DNA from: an uncultured Chloroflexia bacterium
GTDB lineage: Bacteria > Chloroflexota > Limnocylindria > Limnocylindrales > CSP1-4
Length of the DNA: 64,000 nt
Direction of reading: 5' to 3'
Assembly: GCA_963838285.1 (NCBI GenBank)
Contig: CAWIQP010000011.1
Coordinates: forward strand, 75,917-139,916
Shown here in pieces: positions 25,503 through 50,118 of this stretch. The notes under the pieces are model-generated. The model did no database searches, was not told the DNA's origin, and saw only the letters and a list, made by a program, of their open reading frames with translations. Made by a program: the position numbers and the translations under genes. Position 1 is the stretch's first letter; each line of letters begins with the position of its first letter.

Positions 25503-25506
25503 GGCG

Positions 25507-35751: not shown

Positions 35752-36993
35752 GTGAGCGAGGAAACCTACGGCATCGGTCCGCAGGCGGCGAGCGACGGCG
35801 TCGAAGCGATACCCTCGGGCGCTTCGCCCGGCCGCGCGCCGGCACTCGCCGCGGCATCCGCGAGCGACGAGGCGGCGACCACCGGACGCCGCCTCGGCCT
35901 GCCCCGGAAGTCGGGCGCACCGAACGCCGAGCCGGCCAGGAAGCCCGAGCCGACCAAGACGTTCGTGGCGCCGCACCGGATGGAGAAGGAGACCTTCTTC
36001 ACCCACCTTGCCGGCCTCACGGCGCTGAGCTTCTGGCGCACGTCGTCCTGGATCGTGGGCCACCTCCCGGCCGGGCTCACGTATCGGGTCGGCGGCTGGA
36101 TCTCGATGATCGGCTACGCCGCCAGCCCAACCCGTCGCCGCTGGCTGCGGGCTAACTTCGGCCACGTCCTGGGCGTTTCGCCCGACGACAAGGCCGCCCA
36201 CCGCATGGCCCGCGCGGCGTACCGCAACTACTCGCGCTACATCCTGGAGCTGATGCGGCTGCCGTGGCTCAAGCCGGAGCAGGTCGAGCGGCTGCTCGAG
36301 GTCCACAGCCTCGATCGCTTCCTCGAGATCTACCGCGCGTCCAAAGGCGTGGTCCTGGTCGCGGCCCATCTCGGCAACAACGAGGCGGCCGCGGCGGGCT
36401 TCGCCGAGCACGGCCTGGAGATCAACGTCGTCGGCGACGACAGCTCCTACCGCGAGCTGTACGAGCTGTTCGCGCGCCAGCGCGAAAGCTGGGGTGTGAA
36501 GATGATCTCCTGGCGCAACCTGCGCGGCGTGTACGGCGCGCTCCGACGCCACGAGGGCCTGGTCCTGCTGGTCGACTGGGGCTACCGAGCGGACGGCATC
36601 CCCGTCAAGATGTTCGGCTCGTGGACGACGCTCCCGGCCGGTCCGGCCCTGCTGGCGGCCAAGCACGGCTCCACCATCGTCCCGTTCTCGATCAACAGGC
36701 TGCCCAGCGGAGCCTTCCGGGCGGCGGCCGACGATCCGATCCTGGTTCCCTCCGACTCCCCGGCGGACCTGGCGATCGCGACTCAGAAGATCGCGACCGC
36801 GCTCGAGGGCCACATCGCGCCGGCGCCGGAGCAGTGGTACAACTTCAAGCCGATCTGGCCGGCCACGGCCGAGGAGGCTGCCCGGCTCGAAGCGCGGAAC
36901 CGCGCGGCGATGGCGAACGACGCCAAGGGTGCGGCCCCGAACGGCGGGTCGACTCCCGGCGGCGGCGAGAAGCCGAAGCGCCCGGAGAAATGA
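35752..36993 (+). CDS. LpxL/HtrB-family lipid acyltransferase (PatA-like PIM acyltransferase)
   Basis: 413 aa; low-complexity N-terminus then lauroyl/myristoyl acyltransferase fold (GVVLVAAHLGNNE...LVDWGYRADG). Confidence 0.8.
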   Translation: MSEETYGIGPQAASDGVEAIPSGASPGRAPALAAASASDEAATTGRRLGLPRKSGAPNAEPARKPEPTKTFVAPHRMEKETFFTHLAGLTALSFWRTSSWIVGHLPAGLTYRVGGWISMIGYAASPTRRRWLRANFGHVLGVSPDDKAAHRMARAAYRNYSRYILELMRLPWLKPEQVERLLEVHSLDRFLEIYRASKGVVLVAAHLGNNEAAAAGFAEHGLEINVVGDDSSYRELYELFARQRESWGVKMISWRNLRGVYGALRRHEGLVLLVDWGYRADGIPVKMFGSWTTLPAGPALLAAKHGSTIVPFSINRLPSGAFRAAADDPILVPSDSPADLAIATQKIATALEGHIAPAPEQWYNFKPIWPATAEEAARLEARNRAAMANDAKGAAPNGGSTPGGGEKPKRPEK

Positions 36994-38006
36994 CCCGACA
37001 GGCGTCCCCCGCGGCCGGCGAGCCGCCCGTCCGGCGGCGTGGGCTTCGGCGCCGCCTGACCGACGAAGTGTCCGCGTTCTTCACCATCGGCGGGCTCAAG
37101 CTGATCCTGCACCTGCCCGAGCGGCCGATATGGGCTCTGGCCGACTTCGCCGGCGACATCTCGTACCGCTTGTCGCGTGCTCGCCGGGACCGCGTCCGCA
37201 GGAATTTGCGTCGCGTCCTGGAGTGGATGGCGGCAAACGGCCGCGGGGAAGAGTCGTACCGAGCCGCCGCCGCCGACCCGAATAGGCTCGAGGCGCTCGT
37301 CCGATCGGCCTTCAGGAACCAGGCTCGCTACAACGTGGAGCTGGCCCGAGCGCCAAAGTTCGACGCCGCCTGGGTGAGCGAGCGGCTGGAAGTCGAGAAT
37401 CCCGCGGAAGTGGACGCCTGGCTGACTCCCGGCCGAGCCCTGATCCTCATCGGCCTCCATTTCGGGGCGATCGAGGTGCCCGGGATCTATGCGATCCACC
37501 GCATGCGCCGGATCGTGAGCCCCATGGAGACGGTCGCCAACCCCCGTGTCCAGCGCTACGTGTTCTCGACGCGGGACACCATCGGCATCAAGATCGTGAC
37601 TCTGGAGGCGGCGGGCGTCGAGCTGCTGGCGGCGCTGCGGCGGGGCGAGGCGGTCGGGCTCGTGGCCGACCGCAACCTCACCGGCGGCGGCATCGAGGTC
37701 GAGCTGTTCGGCGCCGCGACCAGGATCCCCGCCGGTCCGGTACTGCTCGCGGCCGAAACCGGCGCGCCGGCATACATGTCGGCCGTGCGACGGGTCGGCC
37801 GGGGCCGCTATCGTGGCAGGGTGCGAGAGCTTCCACCGCCGGCGGGGGCGAGCAGGCGGGAGCGCAGTCGGGCTATGGCCCGCGAGGAGGCTCGACTCTT
37901 CGAGGAGTTCATCGTGGATGCACCGGAGCAGTGGCTGGCCCTGTTCCATCCGATCTGGCCCGACCTGGAGCAGCCACCAATGCCACCTACCGGAGACGAA
38001 GCGTGA
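36990..38006 (+). CDS. second LpxL/HtrB-family acyltransferase paralogue
   Basis: ATGA overlap with upstream stop; ALILIGLHFGAIE...GLVADRNLTGGGIEVELFG. Confidence 0.75.
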   Translation: MTRQASPAAGEPPVRRRGLRRRLTDEVSAFFTIGGLKLILHLPERPIWALADFAGDISYRLSRARRDRVRRNLRRVLEWMAANGRGEESYRAAAADPNRLEALVRSAFRNQARYNVELARAPKFDAAWVSERLEVENPAEVDAWLTPGRALILIGLHFGAIEVPGIYAIHRMRRIVSPMETVANPRVQRYVFSTRDTIGIKIVTLEAAGVELLAALRRGEAVGLVADRNLTGGGIEVELFGAATRIPAGPVLLAAETGAPAYMSAVRRVGRGRYRGRVRELPPPAGASRRERSRAMAREEARLFEEFIVDAPEQWLALFHPIWPDLEQPPMPPTGDEA

Positions 38007-38887
38007 CGACTGAGAAACCGCCGCGATTGGGCCAGGCGGACATGCACATCCATTCGATAGCTTCGGATGGCACGGGATCGGCCGCCCAGATCCTCGACTA
38101 CGCGGAGAACCGCACCGACCTGGATCTGATAGCAGTCGCCGACCACGAGCGCATCGAGGCCGCAGTGGAGTGTCAGCGGCTGGCCCGCGAGCGCGGCAGC
38201 CGGTTGGAGGTCGTCGTCGGCGAGGAGGTAACCACGCGCAGCGGCCACCTGCTCGGCCTATTCCTGCAGGCGCGCCTCAAGCGAAACCAGCGCCTCGAGA
38301 CGACCGTCGCCGAGATCCACGAGCAGGGCGGTCTGGCAATCGTGCCGCACCCGTTCTCCGCCTTCACCAAGGGCATGCGCAAGCACGCCATCATGCGGGT
38401 CCACCTCTCGTCCGATCCCCTGGTCTACTGGGATGCGCTGGAGGGCTACAACCCCTCTACGGCAGGCCGTTACGGCCGGGCCGCTACCATCAGGCTCGCC
38501 GCCGAGCTCGGCCTGGCGCTGGTCGGAAACAGCGACGCCCACACTCTCGACACCATCGGCGACGGCCGAACCACCTTCCCCGGTTCGACCTCGGAGGACT
38601 ACCGGCGGGCCATCGGCGAGCGAACCACCAGCGGCGTCTGCGCGGACTGGGGCCTCGTCCGCGAGGCGCTCATCTACGGCCGCCAGGTCCGCAAGCAGGC
38701 CCGAGACGTGGCCCGCTGGAGCCGGCGCAACCTGCTTCGAGACGACGCGCCGCGCGACCTGGGGGTGCCGCAGGATCAGCTGGCCCTCCAGCGGCAGCTC
38801 GAGTCCGAGTACCTCTCCGGACGAGGCAGGGCCCGCCACATGGCCGAGTCCGCGGAGCGCCAAGAGGCGGAGGAGCCGTCGGCGTGA
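38003..38887 (+). CDS. PHP-domain (polymerase/histidinol-phosphatase-like) metal-dependent phosphoesterase
   Basis: GTGA overlap; DMHIHSIASDGTGS...IAVADHERIE...IVPHPFS...GNSDAHTLDTIG. Confidence 0.7.
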   Translation: MTTEKPPRLGQADMHIHSIASDGTGSAAQILDYAENRTDLDLIAVADHERIEAAVECQRLARERGSRLEVVVGEEVTTRSGHLLGLFLQARLKRNQRLETTVAEIHEQGGLAIVPHPFSAFTKGMRKHAIMRVHLSSDPLVYWDALEGYNPSTAGRYGRAATIRLAAELGLALVGNSDAHTLDTIGDGRTTFPGSTSEDYRRAIGERTTSGVCADWGLVREALIYGRQVRKQARDVARWSRRNLLRDDAPRDLGVPQDQLALQRQLESEYLSGRGRARHMAESAERQEAEEPSA

Positions 38888-40071
38888 AGATCGGCCTGGT
38901 CACGCCGTACGTATACCCGCTCCCGGGTGGCGTGAACGCGCACGTCCGCTTCCTGTACGAGAACCTCCGGCTGCGCGGCCACGACGTCCGCATCCTGACC
39001 AGCAGCCACGGCCTGCAACGCTCGTCCGAGGGCGACGTCATTCGCATCGGCAAGGGCTTCAGCGTCCCGAGCAACGGCTCCGTGGGAACGATCACGCTCT
39101 CGCCGCGCTACGTGTCGCAGGTCCAGCGAGTTCTCGACCGCGAGCAGTTCGACCTGCTCCACTTCCACGAGCCGTTCGTGCCCTTCCTGTCTCTGGTGGT
39201 GCTGCGCCAGTCCACGAGCGTGAACATCGCCACGTTCCACGCCTACGCCGGTTTCTCGCCGGCGATGGAGCTCGGGAGCAAGACGCTCCAGGGCTACGCG
39301 CGCCGCCTCCACGGCCGGGTCGCGGTCAGCGCCGCGGCGCGGCACTTCGTCGATCGCTTCTTCCCCGGCGACTACAAGGTCATCTCCAACGGTGTCGACG
39401 TCGGCCGCTTCCAGCGCGCGGTGCCGATCGCCCGCTGGCAGGACGGCTGCCCCAACATCCTGTTCGTCGGCCGCCTGGAGGATCGAAAGGGCCTGCCGCA
39501 CCTGCTCAAGGCCTTCCGGCTGCTCCGCAAGAGCGGCCTCGAATGCCGGCTGCTCATCGTCGGCTCCGGCCCGCAGGAGCGCGAGGCGCGGCGATACGTG
39601 ATGACCCGCCGCCTCCAGAACGTCGAGTTCCTGGGCCGGGTCAGCGACGCCGAGAAGGCCCAGCTCTTCCGCACGGCCGACGTCTTCGTGTCTCCGGCCA
39701 CCGGCCGCGAGTCGTTCGGCATCGTCCTTCTCGAGGCGATGGCCGCCGGCGCACCGATCGTCTGCAGCGACATCCACGGCTACAAGGGCGTGGTCCAGCG
39801 CGGCCGTCAGGGCATCCTCGTGCCGCCGCGCGACGCCAAGAGCCTGGCGGCCGGCATCTCCGAGCTGCTGGCGAATCCGGAGCTGCGGGCCCGCATGGGG
39901 GCCGCCGGACAGGAGCGGGCCGAGCAGTTCAGCTGGGAGCGCGTCACGGCCAAGGTCGAGGAATACTACGGCTTCGTCATCCGCCGCCTCGCCGCCCAGG
40001 GCCAGCTCCCGCCGGGGTTCACGGCCGACGTTCCGCCCGCGTTGCACCCGCCGCTCGAGCACGGCGGCTGA
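38884..40071 (+). CDS. pimA: GT4 glycosyltransferase (phosphatidylinositol alpha-mannosyltransferase PimA-like)
   Basis: GTGA overlap; VKIGLVTPYVYPLPGGVNAHV...; GT-B/GT4 EX7E region ...SFGIVLLEAMAAGAPIVCSD. Confidence 0.8.
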   Translation: MKIGLVTPYVYPLPGGVNAHVRFLYENLRLRGHDVRILTSSHGLQRSSEGDVIRIGKGFSVPSNGSVGTITLSPRYVSQVQRVLDREQFDLLHFHEPFVPFLSLVVLRQSTSVNIATFHAYAGFSPAMELGSKTLQGYARRLHGRVAVSAAARHFVDRFFPGDYKVISNGVDVGRFQRAVPIARWQDGCPNILFVGRLEDRKGLPHLLKAFRLLRKSGLECRLLIVGSGPQEREARRYVMTRRLQNVEFLGRVSDAEKAQLFRTADVFVSPATGRESFGIVLLEAMAAGAPIVCSDIHGYKGVVQRGRQGILVPPRDAKSLAAGISELLANPELRARMGAAGQERAEQFSWERVTAKVEEYYGFVIRRLAAQGQLPPGFTADVPPALHPPLEHGG

Positions 40072-40183: not shown

Positions 40184-43100
40184 TCAGGCGGGCGGCTCGT
40201 CCTTCCGGGACCGCTTGGGGGCCTCGGCTTCGCCACTCCCCGGGGAGGCGGGCGCGGGCGAGGCCGGTTCCGGCGAGACCGGCTCGGCGGACGCGACTTC
40301 GGCATCGGCAGTCTCGGTCGCCTCGACCCCATCGGTCGACTCTTCGGTGCCGGCGGATAGCAGCTTGGACCTGCGGTAGCCGACCACCACCCGGTGCTCC
40401 CAGGCGGCCCAGGCGGCCAGCCCGGCCACGAGAAGCGTGAACATCGTCAGCAGGATCGACCACGTCCCGATCAGCTTGACCGGAGCGGACTCCTGCAGGT
40501 TGACCGAGAACTGGAAGCCGTAGAACCAGGTCGGGAGCAGGGCGTTGTAGACGCTGATGATCGTGTTGGGCATCGGCAGGGCCGAGAGGTTCGGGTACAG
40601 GACGACGAACGCCACGACGGCGAAGGCGCAGACGCCGAGCACGAGGCGGCGCGGGTTGACGGCGGTCAGGGCCACGAACGCCAGGATCGCCAGGATCGGC
40701 AGCAGCACGAGCACGATCCCGTCGGACGGGAGCGCCGCCTGGAAGATGATGTCGCGCGGCCCGTTCTGACCGAGCCACCACAGCAGCACGCCGGCCACCG
40801 CGACCGGTACGAGCAGCTGGAGGATCCACAGATTGTCGTCGTGGCCGGCGTTCTGCCGGCGCTCGATCCGCCACAGGAGATAGACGAGGGAGGCCAGGGC
40901 GGCGACCAGGACGATGGCGATCAGCAGCACCCGCGTCTCGACGCGGACGTCGCCCGTCCCCGTTCCGCAGATGGTGTTGCCGAAGTAGTCGGCCGTGTTC
41001 ACCCGGGCCAGGCCGCACAGCGGGTACTTGAGCAGCCATACGGCGGCCGGGAAGAGCAGGGCCGCGGCCGCCGCGACCCTGGCCAGCAGCCATGTTCGTC
41101 GCGATGGGCCGTGCCACAGCTCGGCCAGGAAGTAGGCGAGCGCTAACAGGAAGAAGGGCAAGGCCGTGTAGAAGTGGTACTGGAACGCGGCTCTATCGAT
41201 CCGCGCCCACGACAGCCATTGCCAGAAGAAGGCCACGGCTATCAAGGTCAGGGCAAGGCTCCGCCTCTTGAAGGCCTGCCAGCAGACGAAGGCCATTGCG
41301 ACGATCGCCATCCACCACAGCGCCGGATTGCCGCCGTCGTAGATCATCGAGCCGGCGTCGTTGGCGTAGCCGATGCTCTCGAACCAGACGGGCTTGAGGT
41401 CCATCGGCCATGCCCACCACGGCGAGCTCGCCGCGTGCGAGGCGCGCAGGTCGTTGTGGTAGTTGTACATCTGGATGGTCAGATCCCAGAGCGTCTGCCC
41501 GGTGTGCCCGGCGGGCCAGGCGTTGTCGCAGACACCGGTGACCGGCTCGACGTGCCAGCAGGCGATGGCCGGCAGCGGACCGGTGGCGGCGGTCTCCGTC
41601 TGCCACGGCATGGCCCAGGGGAAGTACACGACCACGTAGACGACGATCGGCAGGACCAGCAAGCACGCGCTCATCCAGGCTGCCGGCAGGCCGAAGCCCG
41701 AGCCCAGGCGCAGCCACCCGGTGGGGGCGGGCGCCGCCGGCTCGGCAAACCGCGACGGGTCGTCGGGACCAGGCGGCACGGCCAGCGGTCCGAACCCGAG
41801 CCCGCCGGCGAAGCGGAAGGCGACGGCGGCGGCGGCTCCGGCGGCGATCCCGGCGGCCCCCACCTCGAGGAGAAGCCCGCTCTGGCGCACGACGCCCGCG
41901 GCGCCGGCCAGGACTCCGATGACGATCGGGGCCCCGATCGCGAACCACAGCTCTTCCCGCGTCCAGGCGATCGGGTGGTACGCGTTCGCGGCCGCCGCGA
42001 CGGCGGTGATCGTCAGCATGAGGATGAAGAAGGTGTAGTTCGGGGCGCCGTTCTGGATCGTGCCCGGCGACAACAGCAACGCGGCCCCAAACAGCCCGGC
42101 CGCGACGACGGCGGTCACCACCCAGACGAAGACCTTGTCGGGCGTCGTTCGCACCGAGAACGCCCAGACGAACCCGCCGACGACCACGGCCAGCGCCAGC
42201 CCGATCAGCAGGATCACGCCCACGGGGCTGCCCGTGTTGGGCTCGGTGGTCATTTCCGCGATCGCCATCCAGCCCAGGACGCCGGTCCCGGCCGCGAGGC
42301 CGAGGATCGTGATCAGCCGGCCCAGCGCCGACCGGATCAGGATCAGGATCCCGATGCTGGCGATCGCGTACAGGGCCACCCACTTGGAGGCCAGCCCCAG
42401 GCCGAGGATCACCCCCAGGATCGGCATCGTGACCCAGAAGGCGATCCGGCTCTTCCAGACGTTCAACCACAAGATGGCGAAGAGCAGGTAGGCCAATAAC
42501 AGGAAGCCGCCCACGTACGTGTCGTTCATCGCGATGCGCGATTGGACGAAGAGCATCCCGTCGGTCAAGGAGAAGAGGGCGACGAGCAGCCCGATTGACC
42601 GCCGGCGGAACAGGACGCGGGCCAGCAGATACAGGCACGCCGCCATCAGGGCGCCGAAGAGGACCCCGATGATGCGCCACGAGAAGGCGAATTGACCGAC
42701 GTCCACGGTCGCCATTGAGCCGTCCGACGAGAACGCCAGGACCTGCTCGCGGTCCGTGTCCGGCAGCGTGGGAGTCGAATCGAGGCCGATCGCAGCCGGC
42801 TGGAAGGGCAGCGGCGCGTCCGAGAAGACGGCGTCGCCGTTGGTCTCGATCGCGTAGACGGTCCAGCCCTTGCCGTCGGGCGTTCGTCCGAGAGCCTGGG
42901 CGACCCTGGTGGCGCCGTCGAAGACGACCTGCGTGACCGGCCCCGGCATCTGGATCTCGCTCGAGTCCTTGGTCAACGTTCCGGGGCCGCCCGAAGTGTC
43001 GGGATGGATCAGCACGATCGAGTCGCCGGCGGCGACGTAGGACGCCTGGTTGGTGTTGATGCTGGTGCCCTGGAGGTCCGAGTAGTTGAGTGCGATCGAG

Positions 43101-45445
43101 GTCGCCGGGGCGTCGGTCGCGATGGTGGAGGTCACGATGAGGCGGCGCACGTCCAGCAGCCCGACGCCGCTCTTGTACGCCACGATCGCCTGCGGGTCGG
43201 AGGGCACGACCTGAATGTCGGGCAGCTGGCCCTTGGTGATCAGGTCCTGGACCGCCGTCACCTGGGCGGAGCTGAGCGGCCCGACGTTCAACGCCTCGTT
43301 GACGCCCGGCGGCGTGGTCGCGTTGAGGGCATCCTCGACGTACGTCTGATCCAGGGCGAGGGCGGTAGCCAGTGCCTGCTGCTCGGACGGCGGCGGCGCG
43401 GTGGCCGTCGGGCTCTTGACCAGGACCGTCGGCGTGACGCCCAGGTTGGCGAAATCGGCGGCTCCGGGAACCACGCCGTGCGCCACGACCGTGCCGCCGT
43501 TCTGGCTGAGGTCGATCGAGACCATGTCGCCGGCGTCGTCGGAAGCCAGCAGGTAGGGGGGCGTCCCGGAGTAGAGGTGCGTGATGGACAGGCCCGCGGA
43601 GACGGCCAGCTCTGTCGGGGCCTTGGGCGTGGTCGCCACGCCGTTCTGGACGTCGTCCAGGGACGTGGTGTCGATGCGGTAGATCGCCCCGCTCGAAGTC
43701 CCGACGTAGACCAGACCGGTGGGCCCTACCGCCGAGAACGACGACGCGCCCGGAATCGGGAACGTCTGCACGAGCGCCCGGGTCTGGAGGTCGTAGACGC
43801 GCACGTCCGAGCCGGTGGCCACGAAGACCCGGTCGCCGAAGCGCTGGCCCGTGTCGGCCGCGTCCGGGTTGTTCGGGTCGGCCGTTGGAGACGTCGCGGT
43901 ACGAGGCTGGACGAGCGTGGCCTTGACCGTGACGTCGAGATCGCCGGTGGCCGTGACCTTGTCGTCGGAGAAGAGGGTGATGCCGGCCGCGATGGCGTAC
44001 TTGGCCAGCATCGGGTGGGTCCACTCGTAGATGTAGACGCCGTCCACGTTGTGGGGGATGTTGTAGCGCCAGTCCTGCAGGAACTCGGTGGCGCTTCGCG
44101 CGTGGTACACCTCGTCGAAGTGCATCTGCATCGGCTCGTCGAGGCGGTAGATCCGCATCGATAGCACGGCCACCACCAGGGCCACCACGACCCAGATGTC
44201 CAGCTTGTCCAGGCGACCGCGCGGCTCCGAGTCGAGCGAGGCGGTCCTGTCGGGGCTCGTCGACCGGCGCGCCAGGCGCCGCCACACGCGCATGACCTGG
44301 TGGGGGACGTATTGCGGGCGGCCGGGTCCGTCGAGGTAGTCGACGTCCTCTTCCCAATCCTCGTACTCGTCGTACTGCTCGTCGTCCACGTACTCTTCGG
44401 CCTCTTCGGCCTCCTCGGACGGTTCGAAGCCTTGCGAGCGGCCGGGTCTCGTATCCTCGGCTCGCAGGGCGAGGCTCGAGGCCGCGCCCACATTCGACGG
44501 CAGTTCGACGGCGGCGGTTGCGTCGCCGGACGGAATGGCTGCCGCGGTAGTCTCGGGGAGATCCGGCTCGCCGAAGGGTTCGACCGGACCGATGGTGCTC
44601 CACCATCCGCCTGACTCGGGCTCCAGCGCGGCCCGGGCAATCTCCCGCTCCAGCCCTGCGACGGCGCGGCGGCGGAGTTGAAGCAGCGCCCAGACCATCG
44701 CCAGGCCGGTCACGACGCTGCAGACGGCGATGGGCCAGATGAGCCCGTCGAACCACGTGGCCGTCAGGATCCCGTTTCCCCAGTCGTTCAGCGTGCCGGC
44801 GATCGTCCCGTCCGTAGTGGGGATGCCCTGGTACTGGACCAGCACGGCGAGCAGGTTCGCCGCGTTGACCACAGTCAGGGCCAGGTAGGCCACGCTCCAT
44901 CGCCACGAGACGGCCAGCAGGACGGCGCCCAGGCCGAAGAACGGGAAGAGGTATCGCTCGTGAGCCCTCGTCGGCACGACGAAGAAGGCGATGGCAAGGA
45001 CGGCCAGCGCCACCAGCAGCGACTGGGCATCGTCACGCCAGGCCGCCCAGAGGCTCACGCCGACGAGGGTCGCGACCAGCAGGCCGTCGCCCAGTACGGC
45101 GGCGTAGAGGAGGCCGGTCATGCCGAGAAACGCGACCGACGCGATGACGGCGGCCGCTACGAAGAACGCTCCCGACAGGCCGACGAACTCGGCCCGCAAC
45201 CACCCGACGAGGCCCTGCCCGATACCCTCGCGCCTGTGCCCGCTCCCCCACCGAGCGGTCGCCGTGCGTCGACCGAGCCTACCAGGGTCCGGCTCGACCG
45301 CCTGGCGACGATGCCGCGACCACGAGCAGCGCGGCCACGGCCAGGGCGATTGCGAGGACGGTCGCCGGGAAAGGCCCGACGACGAACCCCGGGCCACTCG
45401 TTCCCGAGCTGGCATCGGTCCACGGCGCGTCGTGGATCCAGGCAT
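40184..45445 (-). CDS. giant (1753 aa) GT-C-fold membrane glycosyltransferase: N-terminal TM block, acidic linker, PMT/GT39-like DE-motif domain, large beta-propeller-like periplasmic insert, C-terminal multi-TM region
   Basis: EEAEEAEEYVDDEQYDEYEDWEEDVDYLDG linker; RIYRLDEPMQMHFDEVYHARSATEF (PMT DE motif); ~450-aa soluble region with repeated VYVGTSSGAIYRID-type strands; >15 TMs; start uncertain and may be two genes joined by a frameshift. Confidence 0.55.
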   Translation of the reverse strand: MPGSTTRRGPMPARERVARGSSSGLSRRPSSQSPWPWPRCSWSRHRRQAVEPDPGRLGRRTATARWGSGHRREGIGQGLVGWLRAEFVGLSGAFFVAAAVIASVAFLGMTGLLYAAVLGDGLLVATLVGVSLWAAWRDDAQSLLVALAVLAIAFFVVPTRAHERYLFPFFGLGAVLLAVSWRWSVAYLALTVVNAANLLAVLVQYQGIPTTDGTIAGTLNDWGNGILTATWFDGLIWPIAVCSVVTGLAMVWALLQLRRRAVAGLEREIARAALEPESGGWWSTIGPVEPFGEPDLPETTAAAIPSGDATAAVELPSNVGAASSLALRAEDTRPGRSQGFEPSEEAEEAEEYVDDEQYDEYEDWEEDVDYLDGPGRPQYVPHQVMRVWRRLARRSTSPDRTASLDSEPRGRLDKLDIWVVVALVVAVLSMRIYRLDEPMQMHFDEVYHARSATEFLQDWRYNIPHNVDGVYIYEWTHPMLAKYAIAAGITLFSDDKVTATGDLDVTVKATLVQPRTATSPTADPNNPDAADTGQRFGDRVFVATGSDVRVYDLQTRALVQTFPIPGASSFSAVGPTGLVYVGTSSGAIYRIDTTSLDDVQNGVATTPKAPTELAVSAGLSITHLYSGTPPYLLASDDAGDMVSIDLSQNGGTVVAHGVVPGAADFANLGVTPTVLVKSPTATAPPPSEQQALATALALDQTYVEDALNATTPPGVNEALNVGPLSSAQVTAVQDLITKGQLPDIQVVPSDPQAIVAYKSGVGLLDVRRLIVTSTIATDAPATSIALNYSDLQGTSINTNQASYVAAGDSIVLIHPDTSGGPGTLTKDSSEIQMPGPVTQVVFDGATRVAQALGRTPDGKGWTVYAIETNGDAVFSDAPLPFQPAAIGLDSTPTLPDTDREQVLAFSSDGSMATVDVGQFAFSWRIIGVLFGALMAACLYLLARVLFRRRSIGLLVALFSLTDGMLFVQSRIAMNDTYVGGFLLLAYLLFAILWLNVWKSRIAFWVTMPILGVILGLGLASKWVALYAIASIGILILIRSALGRLITILGLAAGTGVLGWMAIAEMTTEPNTGSPVGVILLIGLALAVVVGGFVWAFSVRTTPDKVFVWVVTAVVAAGLFGAALLLSPGTIQNGAPNYTFFILMLTITAVAAAANAYHPIAWTREELWFAIGAPIVIGVLAGAAGVVRQSGLLLEVGAAGIAAGAAAAVAFRFAGGLGFGPLAVPPGPDDPSRFAEPAAPAPTGWLRLGSGFGLPAAWMSACLLVLPIVVYVVVYFPWAMPWQTETAATGPLPAIACWHVEPVTGVCDNAWPAGHTGQTLWDLTIQMYNYHNDLRASHAASSPWWAWPMDLKPVWFESIGYANDAGSMIYDGGNPALWWMAIVAMAFVCWQAFKRRSLALTLIAVAFFWQWLSWARIDRAAFQYHFYTALPFFLLALAYFLAELWHGPSRRTWLLARVAAAAALLFPAAVWLLKYPLCGLARVNTADYFGNTICGTGTGDVRVETRVLLIAIVLVAALASLVYLLWRIERRQNAGHDDNLWILQLLVPVAVAGVLLWWLGQNGPRDIIFQAALPSDGIVLVLLPILAILAFVALTAVNPRRLVLGVCAFAVVAFVVLYPNLSALPMPNTIISVYNALLPTWFYGFQFSVNLQESAPVKLIGTWSILLTMFTLLVAGLAAWAAWEHRVVVGYRRSKLLSAGTEESTDGVEATETADAEVASAEPVSPEPASPAPASPGSGEAEAPKRSRKDEPPA

Positions 45446-46460
45446 GATCGCGGGCCATCGCGTCGCCCGCGTTCCCTACCAGCGCCCACGGGTTGTAGGC
45501 GTTGAGCGTCAGGTACGGGTACTCACCGAAGGTGTTGACCAGGTGGCTGACGATCGCGTCGAAGACCATGCCCGCGAACGCGAGGACGGTGCCGGCGCCG
45601 AGCAGCGCGGAGACCCGGGTCCGCCGCACCGAGTCCACGATCGGCAGGTATCGCCGGGCCAGGAAGAAGACGCCGGCGCCGGCAACCAGCCCGACGGCCA
45701 GCGTGACCAGCCCGGACAGGGACGCCAGGCGCCCGACGGCCCCGACGAAGTCGAGCCCGGTGAAGGGCAGGCAGACCAGGGCGGCCGCGGCGAGGCCGGC
45801 TCCGAGCGAACTGAGGATCCGCTCCGGCTCAGGCTCGCCCGTCTTCGGCGCGATCGAACGGCGCAGGACGACGAAGCCGACCACGAAACCGAGGATGCCG
45901 AGCTGCATCTTCGTCAGCGCGGCCAGGACCGCCAGCGCCGAGGCCGACTCGCGGTGGTCGCGCTGCAGCTCGCGCAGGCCCAGCAGCAGCAGGATCGACC
46001 CGACCGAGTCCGCCTGGCCCCAGATGGCGCTGTTGAACCAGGTGATCGGGTTGACGAGGACGATGAACGCGACGATGAGGGCCCGACGGTTGTTGACCCC
46101 AAGGTCCCTCGCCATCAGCCAGACCATCGCGGCGAGCCCAAGGTCGGCGAACATCGGCACGACCTTCACGCCCTCGCCGATGTTGCCGCCGGTCAGGAAG
46201 CTGACCGCTCCGAGCAGCAGAAGATAGACGGGTGGATAGTCGAGGAAGCCGGGCCGGCTGTAGAACCCGATCGGCCCGTTGCGGGCGATGTCGTTGCCCC
46301 ACGCCTGGAACGCCCCGAGGTCGTTTGGAAAGCCCGACCCCGGCAACAGGACGTATGCGATGATGAAGCGGAGGATCAGACCCAGTGCGAGGAGAACGAC
46401 GATTGCGGGAATCCCAGTGACGGCACCACTCGTTCCCGAAAAGCGCCCCCGCGGGCTGTC
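45279..46460 (-). CDS. GT-C-fold integral membrane glycosyltransferase (family unresolved)
   Basis: C-terminal part of minus ORF 45279..48497 (remainder is antisense to the + gene); ~11 TMs; FPNDLGAFQAWGNDIARNGPIGFYSRPGFLDYPPVY loop; start approximate. Confidence 0.45.
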   Translation of the reverse strand, partial: DSPRGRFSGTSGAVTGIPAIVVLLALGLILRFIIAYVLLPGSGFPNDLGAFQAWGNDIARNGPIGFYSRPGFLDYPPVYLLLLGAVSFLTGGNIGEGVKVVPMFADLGLAAMVWLMARDLGVNNRRALIVAFIVLVNPITWFNSAIWGQADSVGSILLLLGLRELQRDHRESASALAVLAALTKMQLGILGFVVGFVVLRRSIAPKTGEPEPERILSSLGAGLAAAALVCLPFTGLDFVGAVGRLASLSGLVTLAVGLVAGAGVFFLARRYLPIVDSVRRTRVSALLGAGTVLAFAGMVFDAIVSHLVNTFGEYPYLTLNAYNPWALVGNAGDAMARDHAWIHDAPWTDASSGTSGPGFVVGPFPATVLAIALAVAALLVVAASSPGGRAGPW

Positions 46461-46586
46461 CTCTCGCGAGCTCGGGCCTGACAAGCGATTCGGCCTCCTG
46501 GGCGAGCGCTGAGGTGGAGCGGAGTATAACCCAGGCCACGCCTGGACACGGCGGCCCGGCCGAGGCGGCAGAGCCGGCGGCCGATC

Positions 46587-48350
46587 GTGACGGACGGTGC
46601 CGAACCCGCCCGGGACGGCGGCGCGCGAGCGATCACGTACATCTGGGGCATCGGCCTGGTCGTCCTGTGCCTGGTCGTCTACATCTTCATCAACCCCGAC
46701 CGCGGCAACCCCTACATACACTTCGTCTGGCAGGCGCAGGCGTGGCTCGACGGGCAGATCTCGATCCCGACCCACGTCCAGACGCCTCCCGGCAACTCCT
46801 GGTACCAGGATTACCAGCCGATCCTCGACGCCCTGGGCAACGACACCAACCGGGGCACGCTCCCCTTCCCGCCCCTGCCGGCCCTCGTGCTGCTGCCGTT
46901 CGTGAGCGTCTGGCACCTCTTCACCAACGAGGGACTTCTGGCCACGATCTTCGCCGCGCTGGACGTGGGGCTGGCCTACTGGATGCTCGGCTACCTGCCG
47001 ATCCGCCACGAGATACGCGTCCTGAGCGCACTCTTCCTGGGCCTCGGCACGGTGCTCTGGTACGCCGCCGCGATCGGCAGCACCTGGTTCTGGGCCCACA
47101 TCGTGGCCGTCGGCTGCCTGCTGGGGGCGCTCGGCCTGGCACTCTCCGCGGACCGTGAGGCCGCCGGGCCGCGGCCCCTCGCCGATGAGTTCGCCGCGGC
47201 CCGGCGGCCGGAGTGGTCCGGCGGGTGGCTTGCGGCGGGGACGATCGTCGTCCTGGGCGTGCTCGGCGCGCTTCTGTACGTGCTGGCCAGGGCCGGGACC
47301 CCGGCCGCGGCGATCGCCGGCCTGGGCGTCCTGATCGCCGTCGCCGCGGCCGTGCTCGCGCTGGCGGTTTCGGGCGGCCGCGGCGTCCTCGTGCCGCTCC
47401 TGCTGGTACTCGCTCTCGTGGGCGGCGTGCCCGCCGCGCTCGTCGCCGGAGCCCAGTGGCCGATGGCGCTGGCAGTCGTGGACGCGATCGGCGTGGTCCT
47501 CGTAGTGGGCCTGATCGGCCTGGCGAGAGCGAGACCGGAAACGGTGGATCGGTTCCTCATCGCCTTCCGGGCGGCCCTGGCGCGCCCCGAGTCGCTGCAG
47601 CTGGCCGCGGGCCTGCTCTTCGGACTGGCCTGCACGGCGCGCCTGACGATCGTCTTCGGCTTCCCCTTCCTGATCCTCGTGGGCGGAGGCGGAAGCTGGC
47701 TGCGCCGCGCCCTGCTGGCCGGCGCCGGCGCCGCGGTTCCGCTGGTGGCGCTGCTCGTCTACACCTACGCGGGCACCGGCGACCTCTTCAACCCCGTCTA
47801 CAACTACCTCTATCACCAGGAGCTGGCCTACACCTTCCTCAACTACCACGCCGACTGGTCGGTCGAGGACATCCGCTACGTCCCCCAGAACCTGATGATC
47901 ATGCTGTTCAACACGCCGTTGATCGCGCCGGCCAACTACCCCTGGTCCTCGGACCTGCTCTGCCAGGGCGGGGCGGCCCGCGGCCTGTTCGACAAGTCCT
48001 GCCCGCTCGCGGTCCCGAACTGGGTCGGCAACAGCATCTTCCTGACGAGCCCCGCCTATCTCCTCGCGCCGCTGGCGTGGCTGCCGATTCGGCGCCTGAA
48101 GATAGATCGGGTCACGGCCGGAGCCACGATCGCCGTGATGGCCATCGCCTTCGTGAACCTCATGCACTTCAGCCAGGGCTGGGTCCAGTTCGGCTACCGC
48201 TTCAGCAACGACTTCGCCCCGTTCGCGCTGATCCTCGTGGCCCTGGGCGCCAGCCGCCTCGGTCGCCTGTGGCCTCTCGTCCTGCTCGTGGCGGCGTCGA
48301 TCGTCATCAACTTCTGGGGGACGACCTGGGGAGTGATCCTTGGCTGGTGA
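46587..48350 (+). CDS. ArnT/PMT-like (GT83/GT39-type) GT-C glycosyltransferase
   Basis: 587 aa, ~13 TMs; first periplasmic loop with conserved acidic/aromatic residues (FINPDRGNPYIHFVWQAQAWLDG). Confidence 0.65.
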   Translation: MTDGAEPARDGGARAITYIWGIGLVVLCLVVYIFINPDRGNPYIHFVWQAQAWLDGQISIPTHVQTPPGNSWYQDYQPILDALGNDTNRGTLPFPPLPALVLLPFVSVWHLFTNEGLLATIFAALDVGLAYWMLGYLPIRHEIRVLSALFLGLGTVLWYAAAIGSTWFWAHIVAVGCLLGALGLALSADREAAGPRPLADEFAAARRPEWSGGWLAAGTIVVLGVLGALLYVLARAGTPAAAIAGLGVLIAVAAAVLALAVSGGRGVLVPLLLVLALVGGVPAALVAGAQWPMALAVVDAIGVVLVVGLIGLARARPETVDRFLIAFRAALARPESLQLAAGLLFGLACTARLTIVFGFPFLILVGGGGSWLRRALLAGAGAAVPLVALLVYTYAGTGDLFNPVYNYLYHQELAYTFLNYHADWSVEDIRYVPQNLMIMLFNTPLIAPANYPWSSDLLCQGGAARGLFDKSCPLAVPNWVGNSIFLTSPAYLLAPLAWLPIRRLKIDRVTAGATIAVMAIAFVNLMHFSQGWVQFGYRFSNDFAPFALILVALGASRLGRLWPLVLLVAASIVINFWGTTWGVILGW

Positions 48351-50118
48351 GCGCCCAGCGGGAAGATTGCGACCCGCCTTCGATAGTCTGACCCGTCCCG
48401 AGTTCCTGGCGGCCGCGGTCGCTCCCGCCGCGGCGGCCGCGCTGACGCTCCTCCTCATCGTCCCCACCGTCGCCCCCGGCGTCCTCAACTGGGACACGGC
48501 CGAATTCCAGACGGTGGGCCCGGTACTCGGAACCGCCCATCCGACCGGCTACCCGAGCTACGTGATCCTTGGCTGGCTGGCCTCGATCGTCCTGCAGCCC
48601 CTTGGCGATCCGGCCTACCGGATGAACCTGCTCCAGGCGATCCTGGCGGCAGCGGCCGTGGCTGGGACGGTGGCCGTAGTCCAGGTCCTGACCGGGCGGC
48701 GTCTGATCGCGCTGGCCACCGGGCTGATGCTGGCCTGCAGCCAGCTCTTCTGGCGCCTCTCCACCCACGCCGACCCGCACATGTTCCACGTCGCCCTCAC
48801 GGCGATCCTGTTCGTGGCCCTGCTGATGTGGGACCTGCGGCTTCGCAGCGAAGACCCGGATACGGTCCGCCGCGCCGACCGCTGGCTGGTGTTCGCGGCC
48901 TTCGTCTACGGCGTGGCAGTGGCCAACCACTCCCTGGCGCTGCTGCTGCCGCCCGCCATCGGCCTGTTCGTTCTGGTCGCGGACTGGCGGGTCATCTTCC
49001 GCCCGAGGACGATCGTCGCCTGCGTCGCCGTCCTCGTCGGCACGATGGCGGTTCTGTTCAGCGAGCTGCCGATCCGGGCGGCGATGAACGCGCCGCTCGT
49101 GTACGGCCACCCGGACACGTGGAGCGGCTTTCAGTACGTGGTCCTGGCCGAGCAATTCCGGGGCAGCCTGTCGGATCCGTTCGGCGACCTCCCGGCAAAG
49201 GCCGGACAGGTGCTGGACCTCTTCACGGGCTGGCTGGGCCCGCTGGCCATGGTGGCGGCCCTGGGAGTGGTCACGAGCCTCATCCGGCGCCCCCGCTACC
49301 TGATCCTGAGCGGGCTCTCGGCGGTGGTCACGTGCGGCTTCGCGGCCTCCTACGCCAACGCCGACATCCAGCGCTACTACCTGTTGCCGTTGCTCATCGT
49401 CTTCACCTGGATCGGCCTCGCGGCCGCCGACGTGGTCGCGCTGATCGGCTGGGTCGCTGCGGAGGTGCGGCAGCGCGCAACCCCGGAGGCGTCGCGGGGC
49501 CTGGATTCGGCCGCCGAACCGGGCGATGACCCGCGGCCGGGCGACGCGCCGGAGGCAGGGACGGCGCCGTCCGGGCTCGCCATCGACGGGACTCCCGCTC
49601 TCTCGCCCCGCCTCGGAACCGGACTGGCCGGCTGGGCCGTCATCGCCGGCGAGATCGTCGTCGCCGCGGCGATCGTCTTCTCGGCCGTGAACGTCGTGCC
49701 CGCGCGGCAGCTCCCACAGAGCGGCACGAACCCGGGCGGCGTGAGCCAGGCGAACGACACCTCCGACGCGGCCTGGCTGAAGGCGGTCCTCGCTCCCGCA
49801 AGCGCGGGCGGGCTGCCGGCCAACTCGGTGATCATGAGCTGGTGGAGCGCGTCCACCACGCTCTGGTACGGCCAGCGAGTCCTGGGCATGCGGCCCGACA
49901 TAACCATCATCGACGACAGCACCCGCGTGGACGACAACCTGGGCACGGTTCAGGATGTGTTCAACTCCTACCTGGGTAATAGGCCGGTGTTCACGATCCG
50001 GATCGAAGGCGGCGTCGACGGGATGGACGCGCTGAACCAGGAGTACGAGATCGGGACCTACGACCTGGGGAACGGCTACACGATCGCCCAGGTGCTAGCT
50101 CGAAAGGGAAGCCAGTGA
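48340..50118 (+). CDS. DUF2723/TMEM260-like GT-C membrane protein
   Basis: NWDTAEFQTVGPVLGTAHPTGYPSYVILGW signature; TTG start overlapping upstream stop by 11 nt; C-terminal soluble domain. Confidence 0.7.
   Translation: MAGERPAGRLRPAFDSLTRPEFLAAAVAPAAAAALTLLLIVPTVAPGVLNWDTAEFQTVGPVLGTAHPTGYPSYVILGWLASIVLQPLGDPAYRMNLLQAILAAAAVAGTVAVVQVLTGRRLIALATGLMLACSQLFWRLSTHADPHMFHVALTAILFVALLMWDLRLRSEDPDTVRRADRWLVFAAFVYGVAVANHSLALLLPPAIGLFVLVADWRVIFRPRTIVACVAVLVGTMAVLFSELPIRAAMNAPLVYGHPDTWSGFQYVVLAEQFRGSLSDPFGDLPAKAGQVLDLFTGWLGPLAMVAALGVVTSLIRRPRYLILSGLSAVVTCGFAASYANADIQRYYLLPLLIVFTWIGLAAADVVALIGWVAAEVRQRATPEASRGLDSAAEPGDDPRPGDAPEAGTAPSGLAIDGTPALSPRLGTGLAGWAVIAGEIVVAAAIVFSAVNVVPARQLPQSGTNPGGVSQANDTSDAAWLKAVLAPASAGGLPANSVIMSWWSASTTLWYGQRVLGMRPDITIIDDSTRVDDNLGTVQDVFNSYLGNRPVFTIRIEGGVDGMDALNQEYEIGTYDLGNGYTIAQVLARKGSQ

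What the first reader, a model, noticed from the sequence alone, without database searches (positions are those of the whole stretch)
40184..45445. 1753-aa PMT-like GT-C protein with acidic linker and large beta-propeller-like periplasmic insert
Bacterial Pmt/ArnT-family enzymes are usually 500-600 aa. This ORF runs as follows.
- A ~280-aa multi-TM N-terminal block (AHERYLFPFFGLGAVLLAV).
- An extremely acidic segment (EEAEEAEEYVDDEQYDEYEDWEEDVDYLDG).
- A GT39-type first loop with the catalytic DE motif (HFDEVYHARSATEF).
- A ~450-aa soluble domain with repeated strand motifs (VRVYDLQTRALVQTFPIPG / LVYVGTSSGAIYRID / VVAHGVVPG).
- ~15 further TMs and an Ala/Pro/Glu-rich tail.
The N-terminal TM block may belong to the upstream GT-C gene (45279-46460), joined by an indel. 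Either way it is an unusually elaborate glycosyltransferase, with a possible carrier- or substrate-binding propeller.
Basis: partly seen in the sequence, partly recalled or inferred. Interest (0 to 1): 0.6.

Follow-up and report, generated by a model that had tools for sequence, protein, structure and literature searches.

The report
Giant two-module mannosyltransferase with built-in propeller
This is a frame-broken copy of a roughly 2,070-residue membrane enzyme of uncultured Limnocylindria (Chloroflexota) that joins a PMT-type sugar transferase, a second GT87-like transferase module and a beta-propeller in one chain. These are the same three components recently reported as separate subunits of the mycobacterial protein-mannosylation complex.

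Summary
The ORF 40184..45445(-) is real, but it is not a 1753-aa protein. Its first 82 codons are out-of-frame read-through. Its N-terminal TM block is the C-terminal third of the upstream GT-C ORF (45279..46484).

In relatives both ORFs form one gene of about 2,000-2,200 aa: 44 of about 50 syntenic loci have a single ORF. In the window the gene is broken by a 1-nt gap at 45311 plus a net -31 nt in a hypervariable loop (45200-45311). Whether this is an assembly artefact or a real break cannot be decided without reads.

Anatomy:
- a divergent GT-C module, weakly GT87-like;
- a disordered acidic linker;
- a GT39/PMT module that passes both Pfam thresholds and has the DE motif;
- a clean ~420-aa insertion in extracytoplasmic loop 1, which AlphaFold2 models (pLDDT 92.7) as a 7-8-bladed beta-propeller;
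- extra TM helices.

The family was found only in Chloroflexota (Limnocylindria-type) MAGs, and no paper on it was found.

Best reading: a single-chain version of the mycobacterial Pmt + GT87-like + beta-propeller complex (bioRxiv 2026), doing lipid-linked O-mannosylation outside the membrane. The acceptor (protein or PI-anchored glycolipid) is inferred, not shown. This is a new variant of a known kind.

The parts
46494..46499 (-). Shine-Dalgarno AGGAGG, 9 nt upstream of the true start codon TTG (46482-46484)
   Evidence: Read directly from the sequence. The start aligns with Met1 of P0002.
45279..46484 (-). N-terminal GT-C module, part a: 401 codons plus a TAG stop. In relatives this is residues 1 to ~390 of the giant protein. 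Homology ends near 45312.
   Evidence: tblastn of P0002 aa 1-375 gives 88.5% identity in frame -3. It equals the database protein P0127. The window-L001 dN/dS is 0.21.
45200..45311 (-). Frame-break zone in a hypervariable loop. There is a 1-nt gap at 45311 relative to L001 and L002. The loop at 45225-45276 is shorter. The net change is -32 nt relative to L001, moving the frame from -3 to -1.
   Evidence: blastn alignments and three-frame translation.
44678..45199 (-). N-terminal GT-C module, part b (ORF aa 83-256): the last TM helices, with the near-invariant R-x-HERYLFPFF motif
   Evidence: 89% identical to P0002 aa 440-625. Near-invariant columns are listed. dN/dS is 0.14.
44228..44677 (-). 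Variable inter-module linker (aa 257-406), inferred cytoplasmic, with the acidic patch at 44327-44425
   Evidence: The corresponding stretch of P0121 has pLDDT below 50. D/E-rich patches occur in all 32 relatives measured, with a median of 13 per 30 residues. dN/dS is 0.54.
43985..44227 (-). PMT module start: TM1, catalytic-type DE motif (HFDEVYH, 44102-44122) and the helix THPMLAKYAIAAGITLF
   Evidence: Aligns to YFDEIYH...THPTLGKLIISLGIRIF of the propeller-less GT87-GT39 fusion P0155. The columns are nearly invariant.
42680..43984 (-). Beta-propeller insert (aa 488-922) in extracytoplasmic loop 1, with 7-8 blades and a helical sub-insert at model residues ~199-250
   Evidence: AlphaFold2 pLDDT 92.7, pTM 0.89. 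Foldseek PDB gave 1396 matches at E<=1e-3, and the 50 listed are all propellers. PDB sequence matches to PQQ-type and designed propellers. P0155 has only 4 residues at this position.
42329..42679 (-). PMT core TM helices after the insert, including SRIAMND (42515-42541)
   Evidence: Pfam PF02366 match at aa 920-1038, E 2.6e-9, 37.4 bits against a cut-off of 22.7.
41621..42328 (-). Extra block of about 6 hydrophobic helices (aa 1040-1275), longer than in compact PMTs
   Evidence: Hydropathy profile. P0155 has ~63 residues where the window has ~279.
41033..41620 (-). PMT loop-4-type segment plus PMT_4TMC region, with conserved Cys pairs and the R-x2-F motif (RIDRAAFQYHFY, 41153-41203)
   Evidence: Pfam PF16192 at aa 1318-1469, E 4.2e-9, 36.6 bits against a cut-off of 32.4. 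NCBIfam Pmt model E 2.3e-11. Alignment to P0155.
40376..41032 (-). C-terminal extension: a Cys-containing loop and about 5 more TM helices. Absent from compact PMTs.
   Evidence: Hydropathy profile. P0155 ends near the equivalent of ORF aa ~1466. The extension is conserved in relatives (segment 'Cext').
40184..40375 (-). Low-complexity Ala/Pro/Glu/Ser tail and stop codon
   Evidence: Translation.
46587..50915 (+). Context: a divergently transcribed operon. It holds a 587-aa unannotated polytopic protein (46587-48350), a TMEM260-like/PMT_2 GT-C (48340-50118) and a GT2 that resembles polyprenyl-phosphate-sugar synthases (50115-50915).
   Evidence: Pfam and NCBIfam scans. Conserved next to the giant gene in 44-48 of 66 loci.
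35002..40071 (+). Context: a convergent gene set. It holds a CDP-alcohol phosphatidyltransferase, two Lip_A_acyltrans genes (best NCBIfam match PIM acyltransferase, below cut-off), a PHP phosphoesterase and a GT4.
   Evidence: Relatives add inositol-1-phosphate synthase. Conserved in 35-52 of 66 loci.

Best explanation
**What the gene is.** The window holds one gene, not two. It is a member of a Limnocylindria-specific family of ~2,000-2,200-aa, ~35-TM proteins. The coding region runs from TTG 46484 to the stop at 40184 on the minus strand, and it is frame-broken here at 45200-45311.

**What the protein is built from (shown):**
- an N-terminal GT-C-fold module, weakly GT87-like. It has a near-invariant Asp (FPNDL) at the start of its first juxtamembrane helix. 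This is the position of the catalytic base in PimE, ALG6 and ArnT;
- a disordered acidic linker;
- a GT39/PMT-type module with DE, SRxxxxD and R-x2-F motifs;
- a 7-8-bladed beta-propeller inserted in loop 1, about 30 residues after the DE motif.

**How it most likely works (inferred).**
- The adjacent GT2 loads a sugar, probably mannose, onto polyprenyl phosphate. The lipid-linked sugar is flipped to the outer face of the membrane.
- The PMT module transfers the sugar to Ser/Thr of exported proteins on the outer face of the membrane.
- The propeller sits over the active site as an acceptor-selecting cap.
- The GT87-like module acts as the partner 'second protomer' of a pseudo-heterodimer and/or elongates the glycan, as PimE does in mycobacteria.

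The protein would therefore be a single-chain equivalent of the mycobacterial complex of Pmt, the GT87-like Rv0051 and the beta-propeller Rv3212.
For: **Architecture**
- One ORF in 44 of ~50 syntenic loci.
- P0002 covers both window ORFs.
- A Shine-Dalgarno sequence lies before TTG 46484; no comparable Shine-Dalgarno match precedes TTG 45199.
- dN/dS is 0.14-0.21 on both sides of the break.

**PMT module**
- Both Pfam models score above threshold.
- The NCBIfam Pmt model matches at E 2.3e-11.
- The motifs align to P0155 and are near-invariant in the family.

**Propeller**
- Structure model and fold and sequence matches.
- The insertion point is defined against P0155 and P0153.
- One variant carries a LysM domain inside the insert, which argues for an extracytoplasmic location.

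**N module**
- AlphaFold2 pLDDT 85.9.
- Some family members pass the GT87 Pfam threshold.

**Functional frame from the literature**
- Pull-down and AlphaFold3 evidence for a complex of Pmt, a GT87-like protein, an 8-bladed propeller placed over the active site and a DivIVA-like protein. GT87-GT39 fusions are also reported in Paenibacillus (bioRxiv 10.64898/2026.07.15.738315).
- PimE (GT87) elongates protein O-mannose (PMC12757957).
- A GT2 resembling polyprenyl-phosphate-sugar synthases lies in the divergent operon.
Against: - No biochemical data exist for any member of the family, and all members come from MAGs.
- The GT87 assignment is weak. P0002 scores 15.8 bits against a cut-off of 25. 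An N-module profile finds no PimE chain in the PDB at E<=10. PimE is not among the 50 best Foldseek matches.
- The NCBIfam Pmt equivalog scores 43 bits against a cut-off of 800, so this is not an ortholog of actinobacterial Pmt.
- The position of the propeller over the active site was not modelled. Homology of the propeller to Rv3212 was not tested.
- The GT2's best NCBIfam matches are to several different polyprenyl-phosphate-sugar synthases, all below cut-off. Mannose is therefore inferred from family membership only.
- The conserved neighbours include phosphatidylinositol/PIM-type genes, which point to a glycolipid acceptor instead.
- In this window the gene is interrupted and may not be functional.
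Confidence: 0.55

Rival explanations
1. Lipoglycan synthase. Both GT-C modules extend a phosphatidylinositol-anchored glycolipid (PIM- or lipomannan-like) on the outer face of the membrane. The propeller would bind or measure the growing glycan rather than a protein.
For: - The gene is flanked in ~50 species by a CDP-alcohol phosphatidyltransferase, two acyltransferases whose best NCBIfam match is PIM acyltransferase, a PHP phosphatase and a GT4. In many relatives inositol-1-phosphate synthase is there too.
- The founding GT87 enzyme, PimE, acts on PIMs (PMC12041525).
- Four polytopic or GT-C-like modules cluster here with one GT2.
Against: - No GT39 enzyme described in the papers read here acts on a lipid acceptor; all are protein O-mannosyltransferases.
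- The PI genes are on the opposite strand, convergent with the giant gene. Gene order is conserved for everything within +/-10 kb, including dciA, recF and dnaN. Adjacency is therefore weak evidence of shared function.
- The acyltransferase and GT4 matches fall below the equivalog cut-offs.
Confidence: 0.3
2. The interruption is real. In this organism the gene is a recent pseudogene, or it is expressed as two polypeptides. These would be a 401-aa N fragment and a 1671-aa protein that carries only the tail of the N module.
For: - Two separate frame-changing differences are needed to restore the frame.
- The 8 neighbouring genes compared by tblastn and the 10 other window ORFs scanned against Pfam (nuo, recF, dciA) show no frame breaks, so the assembly is not generally noisy.
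- The public record calls two genes (P0127 and P0001).
- Paralogs with the PMT module and propeller but no N module exist, so the C-terminal part could work alone.
Against: - Both differences lie within ~110 nt of a G+C-rich loop that varies in length even between genomes 97.6% identical. This is the kind of place where a consensus of mixed strains fails.
- dN/dS of the orphaned N fragment (0.21) is no higher than that of the propeller.
- No comparable Shine-Dalgarno match precedes the second ORF.
- 44 of ~50 orthologs are intact. Of the six loci where the modules are in separate frames, at least four come from 'contig_NNNN'-style long-read assemblies with other indels.
Confidence: 0.4
3. The N-terminal module is a non-catalytic scaffold, like the mycobacterial GT87-like partner Rv0051/ML2687c. 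It would only dimerise with, or present substrate to, the PMT module.
For: - The mycobacterial partner is reported to lack catalytic residues yet to matter for activity.
- The yeast Pmt1-Pmt2 precedent, as described in the same source.
Against: - The module keeps many invariant polar residues in its loops: D115, Q158, D160, E180, K193, Q195, R210, N329, N332 and D353.
- It also keeps a near-invariant Asp at the start of the first juxtamembrane helix.
- This pattern resembles the functional residues of PimE (D58, D160, Q163, K195). The equivalence was not established by alignment.
Confidence: 0.35

Closest known systems
Mycobacterial protein O-mannosylation complex: Pmt/Rv1002c (GT39), Rv0051 (GT87-like), Rv3212 (8-bladed periplasmic beta-propeller) and Rv1209 (DivIVA-like). 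Source: bioRxiv 10.64898/2026.07.15.738315.
   Same: It has the same three kinds of component: a GT39 catalytic unit with a DE motif, a GT87-like GT-C partner, and a beta-propeller on the extracytoplasmic side next to the catalytic loop.
   Different: - Here all three are in one polypeptide, and the propeller is an insertion within loop 1 of the PMT module rather than a separate membrane-anchored subunit.
- The GT87-like part keeps an active-site-like set of conserved residues.
- No DivIVA-like partner was looked for.
- Homology of the two propellers is untested.
- The host is Chloroflexota, not Actinobacteria.
   Same: The module order is the same, with the GT87-like module N-terminal and the PMT module C-terminal. 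DE, SRxxxxD and R-x2-F motifs align.
   Different: They lack three additions present in the window protein: the ~420-aa propeller (only GMNP at that site), the extra ~215-aa TM block, and the C-terminal 5-TM extension.
Eukaryotic PMT1/PMT2/POMT (GT39) with MIR domains
   Same: The catalytic family and DE motif are the same. A soluble lumenal or extracytoplasmic domain caps the active site.
   Different: - The MIR domain is a different fold, not a propeller, and sits in loop 4. Here the soluble domain is a propeller in loop 1.
- Eukaryotic enzymes pair two GT39 protomers. Here a GT39 module is fused to a different GT-C module.
PimE (GT87; PDB 9DM7/9DM5)
   Same: - It shares the GT-C fold.
- The solved-structure neighbours overlap (ALG6, PIG-U, ArnT, PglB).
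- An Asp lies at the first juxtamembrane helix.
   Different: - No sequence-profile match to PimE chains.
- PimE is not among the top 50 fold matches.
- The N module is ~620 aa and has an extra variable loop.
Actinobacterial Pmt (MtPMT, about 520 aa, 11 TMH)
   Same: It has the PF02366 and PF16192 architecture and the same catalytic motifs.
   Different: - The window's PMT module has about twice as many hydrophobic segments.
- It carries a propeller.
- It scores far below the NCBIfam equivalog cut-off (43 bits against 800).

Membership tests
GT39 / PMT family | Matches to Pfam PMT (PF02366) and PMT_4TMC (PF16192) above their gathering scores | tested here: met
   37.4 bits against 22.7 and 36.6 bits against 32.4. 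The precomputed domains of the listed homologs agree.
GT39 / PMT family | Asp-Glu catalytic motif in the first extracytoplasmic loop, just after TM1 | tested here: met
   HFDEVYH at aa 442-448, 12 residues after the TM1 stretch that ends at aa 430. F-D-E-V-Y-H columns are at least 90% conserved in 88 sequences. The motif aligns to YFDEIYH of P0155.
GT39 / PMT family | Second essential Asp (MtPMT D176) and the R-x2-Y/F motif (MtPMT R441/Y444), as defined in PMC12331936 | tested here: inconclusive
   Candidate equivalents are SRIAMND (aa 969-975) and DRAAF (within aa 1415-1431). Both are conserved, lie inside the Pfam matches and align to P0155. No direct alignment to MtPMT or yeast Pmt1 could be made.
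GT39 / PMT family | Core of 11 transmembrane helices | tested here: inconclusive
   Hydropathy gives about 22 hydrophobic segments in this module. The extra ones lie in two blocks absent from P0155. No 3D model of the module was made.
GT39 / PMT family | Orthology to actinobacterial Pmt (NCBIfam NF058602 equivalog) | tested here: not met
   43.2 bits against a cut-off of 800.
GT39 / PMT family | Transfer of mannose from polyprenyl-phosphate-mannose to Ser/Thr | not testable with these tools
   Needs biochemistry.
GT87 (PimE family), for the N-terminal module | Pfam GT87 (PF09594) match above the gathering score | tested here: inconclusive
   The closest intact ortholog, P0002, scores 15.8 bits against 25. 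Family members P0137 (29.5), P0148 (29.0) and P0069 (27.2) pass.
GT87 (PimE family), for the N-terminal module | GT-C fold with a conserved Asp at the first juxtamembrane helix | tested here: met
   The Foldseek matches with high probability are almost all GT-C proteins. D56 of FPNDL is at least 90% conserved and lies at the start of helix 54-70, after TM1 at 20-47.
GT87 (PimE family), for the N-terminal module | Detectable similarity to the solved PimE | tested here: not met
   No PimE chain at E<=10 with the N-module profile. PimE is absent from the 50 best Foldseek matches.
Beta-propeller fold, for the insert | Ring of four-stranded antiparallel blades | tested here: met
   The confident model has 30 DSSP strands. 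It gave 1396 PDB matches at E<=1e-3. The best by E-value are the Rsa4/NLE1 propellers, and TMt reaches 0.73 on WD40 domains.
PQQ-like / WD40 sequence families, for the insert | Significant match to a curated repeat family | tested here: not met
   No Pfam family at E<=0.01. Only single-blade similarity to a PQQ-type propeller (E 1.6e-4) and to designed 'Cake' propellers. The domain's own family has only 226 clusters among 1.84 billion representatives.
Mycobacterial-type PMT holo-complex | Propeller positioned over the GT39 active site, and GT87-like partner packed against the GT39 unit | not tested
Only the sequence position, with the insert ~30 residues after the DE motif, is known.

The most novel reading that the evidence does not exclude
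The Limnocylindria protein is a natural single-chain 'holo-PMT'. It would give independent gene-fusion (Rosetta-stone) evidence that GT39, a GT87-like GT-C and a beta-propeller form an ancient functional unit of bacterial O-mannosylation. It would also be the first indication of such machinery in Chloroflexota. Here the GT87-like module would still be catalytically active, so that one polypeptide both initiates and elongates the glycan.
Probability: 0.4. Interest if true: 0.7.

Novelty: new variant of a known kind. Interest (0 to 1): 0.6.

Why it matters
- **Support for a new proposal.** A bacterial PMT complex with a GT87-like partner and a propeller 'gatekeeper' was proposed only in a 2026 preprint. 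That proposal rests on AlphaFold3 models and one pull-down. A lineage that fuses the same three parts into one gene supports the association independently, from an unrelated phylum.
- **A structural target.** The fusion offers a single-chain target for cryo-EM or AlphaFold3 to see how a soluble cap selects acceptors for a GT-C enzyme.
- **Biology of an uncultured class.** Limnocylindria are uncultured. The gene points to protein or lipoglycan mannosylation as a conserved envelope feature of this class.
- **Annotation.** Public records name these genes 'phospholipid carrier-dependent glycosyltransferase' or leave them unnamed, and often call them in fragments. That hides the two-module architecture.

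Tried and rejected
- **A true 1753-aa gene.** Rejected. Residues 1-82 have no homolog support, and relatives continue upstream in another frame.
- **A single indel.** Rejected. Restoring one base at 45311 still runs into a stop. A second shift inside 45200-45290 is needed.
- **A generally error-prone assembly.** Rejected for this window. The 8 neighbouring genes and the nuo, recF and dciA genes are intact. The near-identical contig L002 and also L004 are noisy.
- **Stand-alone N-module or stand-alone propeller proteins as separate families.** Most short hits turned out to be fragments of the same giant proteins.
- **Single-sequence PDB search with the PMT_4TMC region.** It gave only chance hits.
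- **N-module profile against the PDB.** It gave only a chance transporter hit and no GT-C.
- **Literature.** Searches for Limnocylindria or Chloroflexota with O-mannosyltransferase or PIM found nothing relevant.
- **Synteny as proof of a PIM pathway.** Downgraded, because the whole region, including replication genes, keeps its order across the class.
Full report
**Observation.** The ORF 40184..45445 on the minus strand is present and 1753 codons long. It has coding-type composition for a 70% G+C genome: GC3 is 0.92 and GC2 is 0.51. Pfam places PMT (PF02366) at aa 920-1038 and PMT_4TMC (PF16192) at aa 1318-1469, both above their gathering scores. The NCBIfam Pmt model matches at E 2.3e-11 but far below its equivalog cut-off.

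**The ORF is not the gene.**
- A search of 5.8 billion proteins returned mainly 2,000-2,200-aa proteins. The named ones come from 'Candidatus Limnocylindrales' MAGs.
- P0002 is 84% identical and 2104 aa long. It begins MSGPSSRED..., which matches the upstream window ORF (45279..46484, frame -3), and it runs on into the 1753-aa ORF (frame -1).
- The public record of this contig calls two genes, P0127 (401 aa) and P0001 (1671 aa, starting at TTG 45199).
- DNA alignment shows the window lacks one base at 45311 relative to both L001 and L002. It is also shorter in the following loop. The net difference from L001 is -32 nt. Three-frame translation shows that two shifts are needed to restore the frame.
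- The first 82 codons of the ORF are therefore read-through in the wrong frame. The 'N-terminal TM block' is the end of the upstream module.
- A good Shine-Dalgarno sequence (AGGAGG) precedes TTG 46484. No comparable Shine-Dalgarno match precedes TTG 45199.

**Artefact or real break?**
- The 8 neighbouring genes compared by tblastn and the 10 other window ORFs scanned against Pfam (nuo, recF, dciA) show no frame breaks. The assembly is therefore not generally noisy.
- Both changes fall within ~110 nt of a G+C-rich loop that differs in length even between genomes 97.6% identical.
- dN/dS between the window and L001 is 0.21 for the orphaned N fragment. The other coding parts give 0.14-0.21, and the linker gives 0.54. 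There is thus no sign of decay.
- I cannot decide this without reads, and I put a real disruption at about 0.4.

**Distribution and architecture.**
- A scan of 185,579 species genomes found 62 loci, all in Chloroflexota MAGs (Limnocylindrales/Limnocylindria, 'Chloroflexi bacterium', 'uncultured Chloroflexia' or 'uncultured Anaerolineaceae') from peat, fen, soil and lake samples.
- In about 50 of them the N module is present. In 44 it is in the same ORF as the PMT module. Of the six loci where it is not, at least four are 'contig_NNNN'-style long-read contigs that carry other indels.
- Several genomes have a second paralog elsewhere, with the PMT module and propeller but no N module.
- An exhaustive HMMER search with the insert alone found only 226 clusters at E<=1e-3 among 1.84 billion representatives. 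The short hits that were checked are fragments of the same giant proteins.
- Searches of the paper library for Limnocylindria or Chloroflexota together with O-mannosyltransferase or PIM terms found nothing on this family.

**The insert.**
- Residues 488-922 were modelled with an 88-sequence alignment, giving pLDDT 92.7 and pTM 0.89. The model has 30 strands and a helical sub-insert at residues ~199-250.
- Foldseek against the PDB gave 1396 matches at E<=1e-3, and all 50 listed are beta-propellers. The best E-values are for the Rsa4/NLE1 propellers. The best target coverage (TMt up to 0.73) is on WD40 domains. I read this as 7-8 blades.
- Sequence searches agree at the level of one blade. The matches are a PQQ-type propeller (7dxn, E 1.6e-4) and designed 'Cake' propellers (E 6e-9 with the family profile).
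- No curated Pfam repeat family matches.
- Comparison with P0155 fixes the insertion point. P0155 is a 1025-aa GT87-GT39 fusion without a propeller. It reads ...THPTLGKLIISLGIRIF-GMNP-FGWRFMGALFG..., while the window reads ...THPMLAKYAIAAGITLF-[~420 aa]-FAFSWRIIGVLFG....
- The propeller therefore lies in extracytoplasmic loop 1, about 30 residues after the DE motif. The topology is inferred from the known PMT topology (PMC12331936).
- One variant (P0017) carries a LysM domain inside the insert. Conserved Cys pairs occur in the neighbouring loops. Both fit an extracytoplasmic location.
- The same comparison shows two further additions in the window protein: ~215 aa of TM helices after ASKW, and a C-terminal extension with ~5 TM helices.

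**The N module.**
- The stand-alone-looking homolog P0121 (77% identical to the module of P0002) was modelled, giving pLDDT 85.9 and pTM 0.86. The model is all-helical and its tail is disordered.
- Pfam GT87 is borderline. P0002 scores 15.8 bits, while P0069, P0148 and P0137 score 27-29.5 bits against a cut-off of 25.
- A profile of the module finds no PimE chain in the PDB.
- I therefore call the module a divergent GT-C, weakly GT87-like.
- It keeps many invariant polar residues and a near-invariant Asp (FPNDL) at the start of the first juxtamembrane helix. This is where PimE, ALG6 and ArnT have their catalytic base. That suggests the module is active, but does not prove it.

**The linker.** Residues 257-406 are variable (dN/dS 0.54). 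The corresponding stretch is disordered in the P0121 model. Every relative measured has a strongly acidic patch here; the window has 18 D/E in 30 residues.

**Context.**
- The giant gene diverges from an operon on the plus strand. That operon holds a 587-aa unannotated polytopic protein, a TMEM260-like/PMT_2 GT-C and a GT2. The GT2's best matches are polyprenyl-phosphate-sugar synthases, all below their cut-offs.
- It converges with a second gene set. This holds a CDP-alcohol phosphatidyltransferase, two acyltransferases closest to PIM acyltransferase, a PHP phosphoesterase and a GT4. Many relatives add inositol-1-phosphate synthase.
- This order is kept in about 50 species. The order of dciA, recF and dnaN next door is kept as well, so adjacency alone is weak evidence of a shared pathway.

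**Mechanism.**
- A 2026 preprint reports that mycobacterial Pmt (GT39) co-purifies with three proteins: a GT87-like protein (Rv0051), an eight-bladed periplasmic beta-propeller (Rv3212) and a DivIVA-like protein.
- In their AlphaFold3 model the propeller sits directly over the Pmt active site as a possible gatekeeper. The preprint also notes that Paenibacillus GT39 enzymes are fused to GT87 enzymes.
- A 2025 review states that the GT87 enzyme PimE elongates O-mannose on mycobacterial proteins (PMC12757957).
- The window protein contains the same three kinds of part in one chain. The propeller is wired into the catalytic loop itself.
- My best reading (confidence 0.55) is a single-chain O-mannosylation machine. 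The GT2 makes the lipid-linked sugar. The PMT module transfers it to exported proteins. The propeller selects or holds the acceptor. The GT87-like module serves as partner protomer and probably as elongating transferase.
- What is shown: the domain identities, their order, the insertion point, and conservation across the family.
- What is inferred: the sugar, the acceptor, the spatial arrangement of the domains, and activity of the N module.
- The main rival (0.3) is extension of a PI-anchored glycolipid, suggested by the neighbouring genes.

**Verdict.** This is a new variant of a known kind: a GT39 enzyme with a propeller inserted in loop 1, fused to a second GT-C module. I found it only in uncultured Chloroflexota (Limnocylindria-type) MAGs, and it is unstudied. 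Its main interest is as independent fusion evidence for the newly proposed bacterial PMT holo-complex, and as a tractable single-chain structural target. Interest: 0.6.

Noticed in passing
window 51782-54040 (-): A 752-aa protein with no family match (only a weak PP2C hit, E 0.26). It has one TM helix at aa 318-336. Its C-terminal half has repeat-like strand motifs that could be another extracytoplasmic propeller. It is a conserved neighbour in about 42 loci.
   Followed up: partly
window 46587-48350 (+): A 587-aa polytopic membrane protein with about 13 hydrophobic segments and no Pfam or NCBIfam match. It is transcribed divergently from the giant gene and is conserved in 48 of 66 loci. It may be a further GT-C-like enzyme or a flippase.
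   Followed up: partly
window 48340-50915 (+): A TMEM260-like/PMT_2 GT-C gene (592 codons as listed; homology to relatives begins near 48457) is followed by a 266-aa GT2 with a 4-nt overlap. The locus therefore holds four polytopic or GT-C-like modules and one synthase resembling those that make polyprenyl-phosphate sugars.
   Followed up: partly
window 35002-40071 (+); L003 20464-21705: A phosphatidylinositol/PIM-type early-step gene set: CDP-alcohol phosphatidyltransferase, two PatA-like acyltransferases, a PHP phosphoesterase and a GT4. L003 carries inositol-1-phosphate synthase between the acyltransferase and the phosphatidyltransferase. Many other relatives have a gap of matching size there. 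The window and its closest relative L002 have neither.
   Followed up: partly
P0017 aa 1049-1095: One family member has a LysM domain inserted inside the propeller insert, roughly where the window protein has its helical sub-insert.
   Followed up: partly
L010, L025, L026, L045, L051, L055, L058, L060, L061: Several of the same genomes carry a second paralog at an unrelated locus. It has the PMT module and propeller, lacks the N module, and is about 1,100-1,700 aa.
   Followed up: partly
L002 and L004 (ENA contig_41818, contig_32462): These near relatives come from assemblies with many single-base indels, which fragment the giant gene and its neighbours. Database proteins such as P0003 and P0121 are pieces produced by this.
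   Followed up: yes
window 17036-30471 (+) and 54125-55908 (-): A complex I (nuo) gene run, and DciA and RecF-like genes. Relatives have dnaN next to these, so the locus may lie near the replication origin.
   Followed up: no
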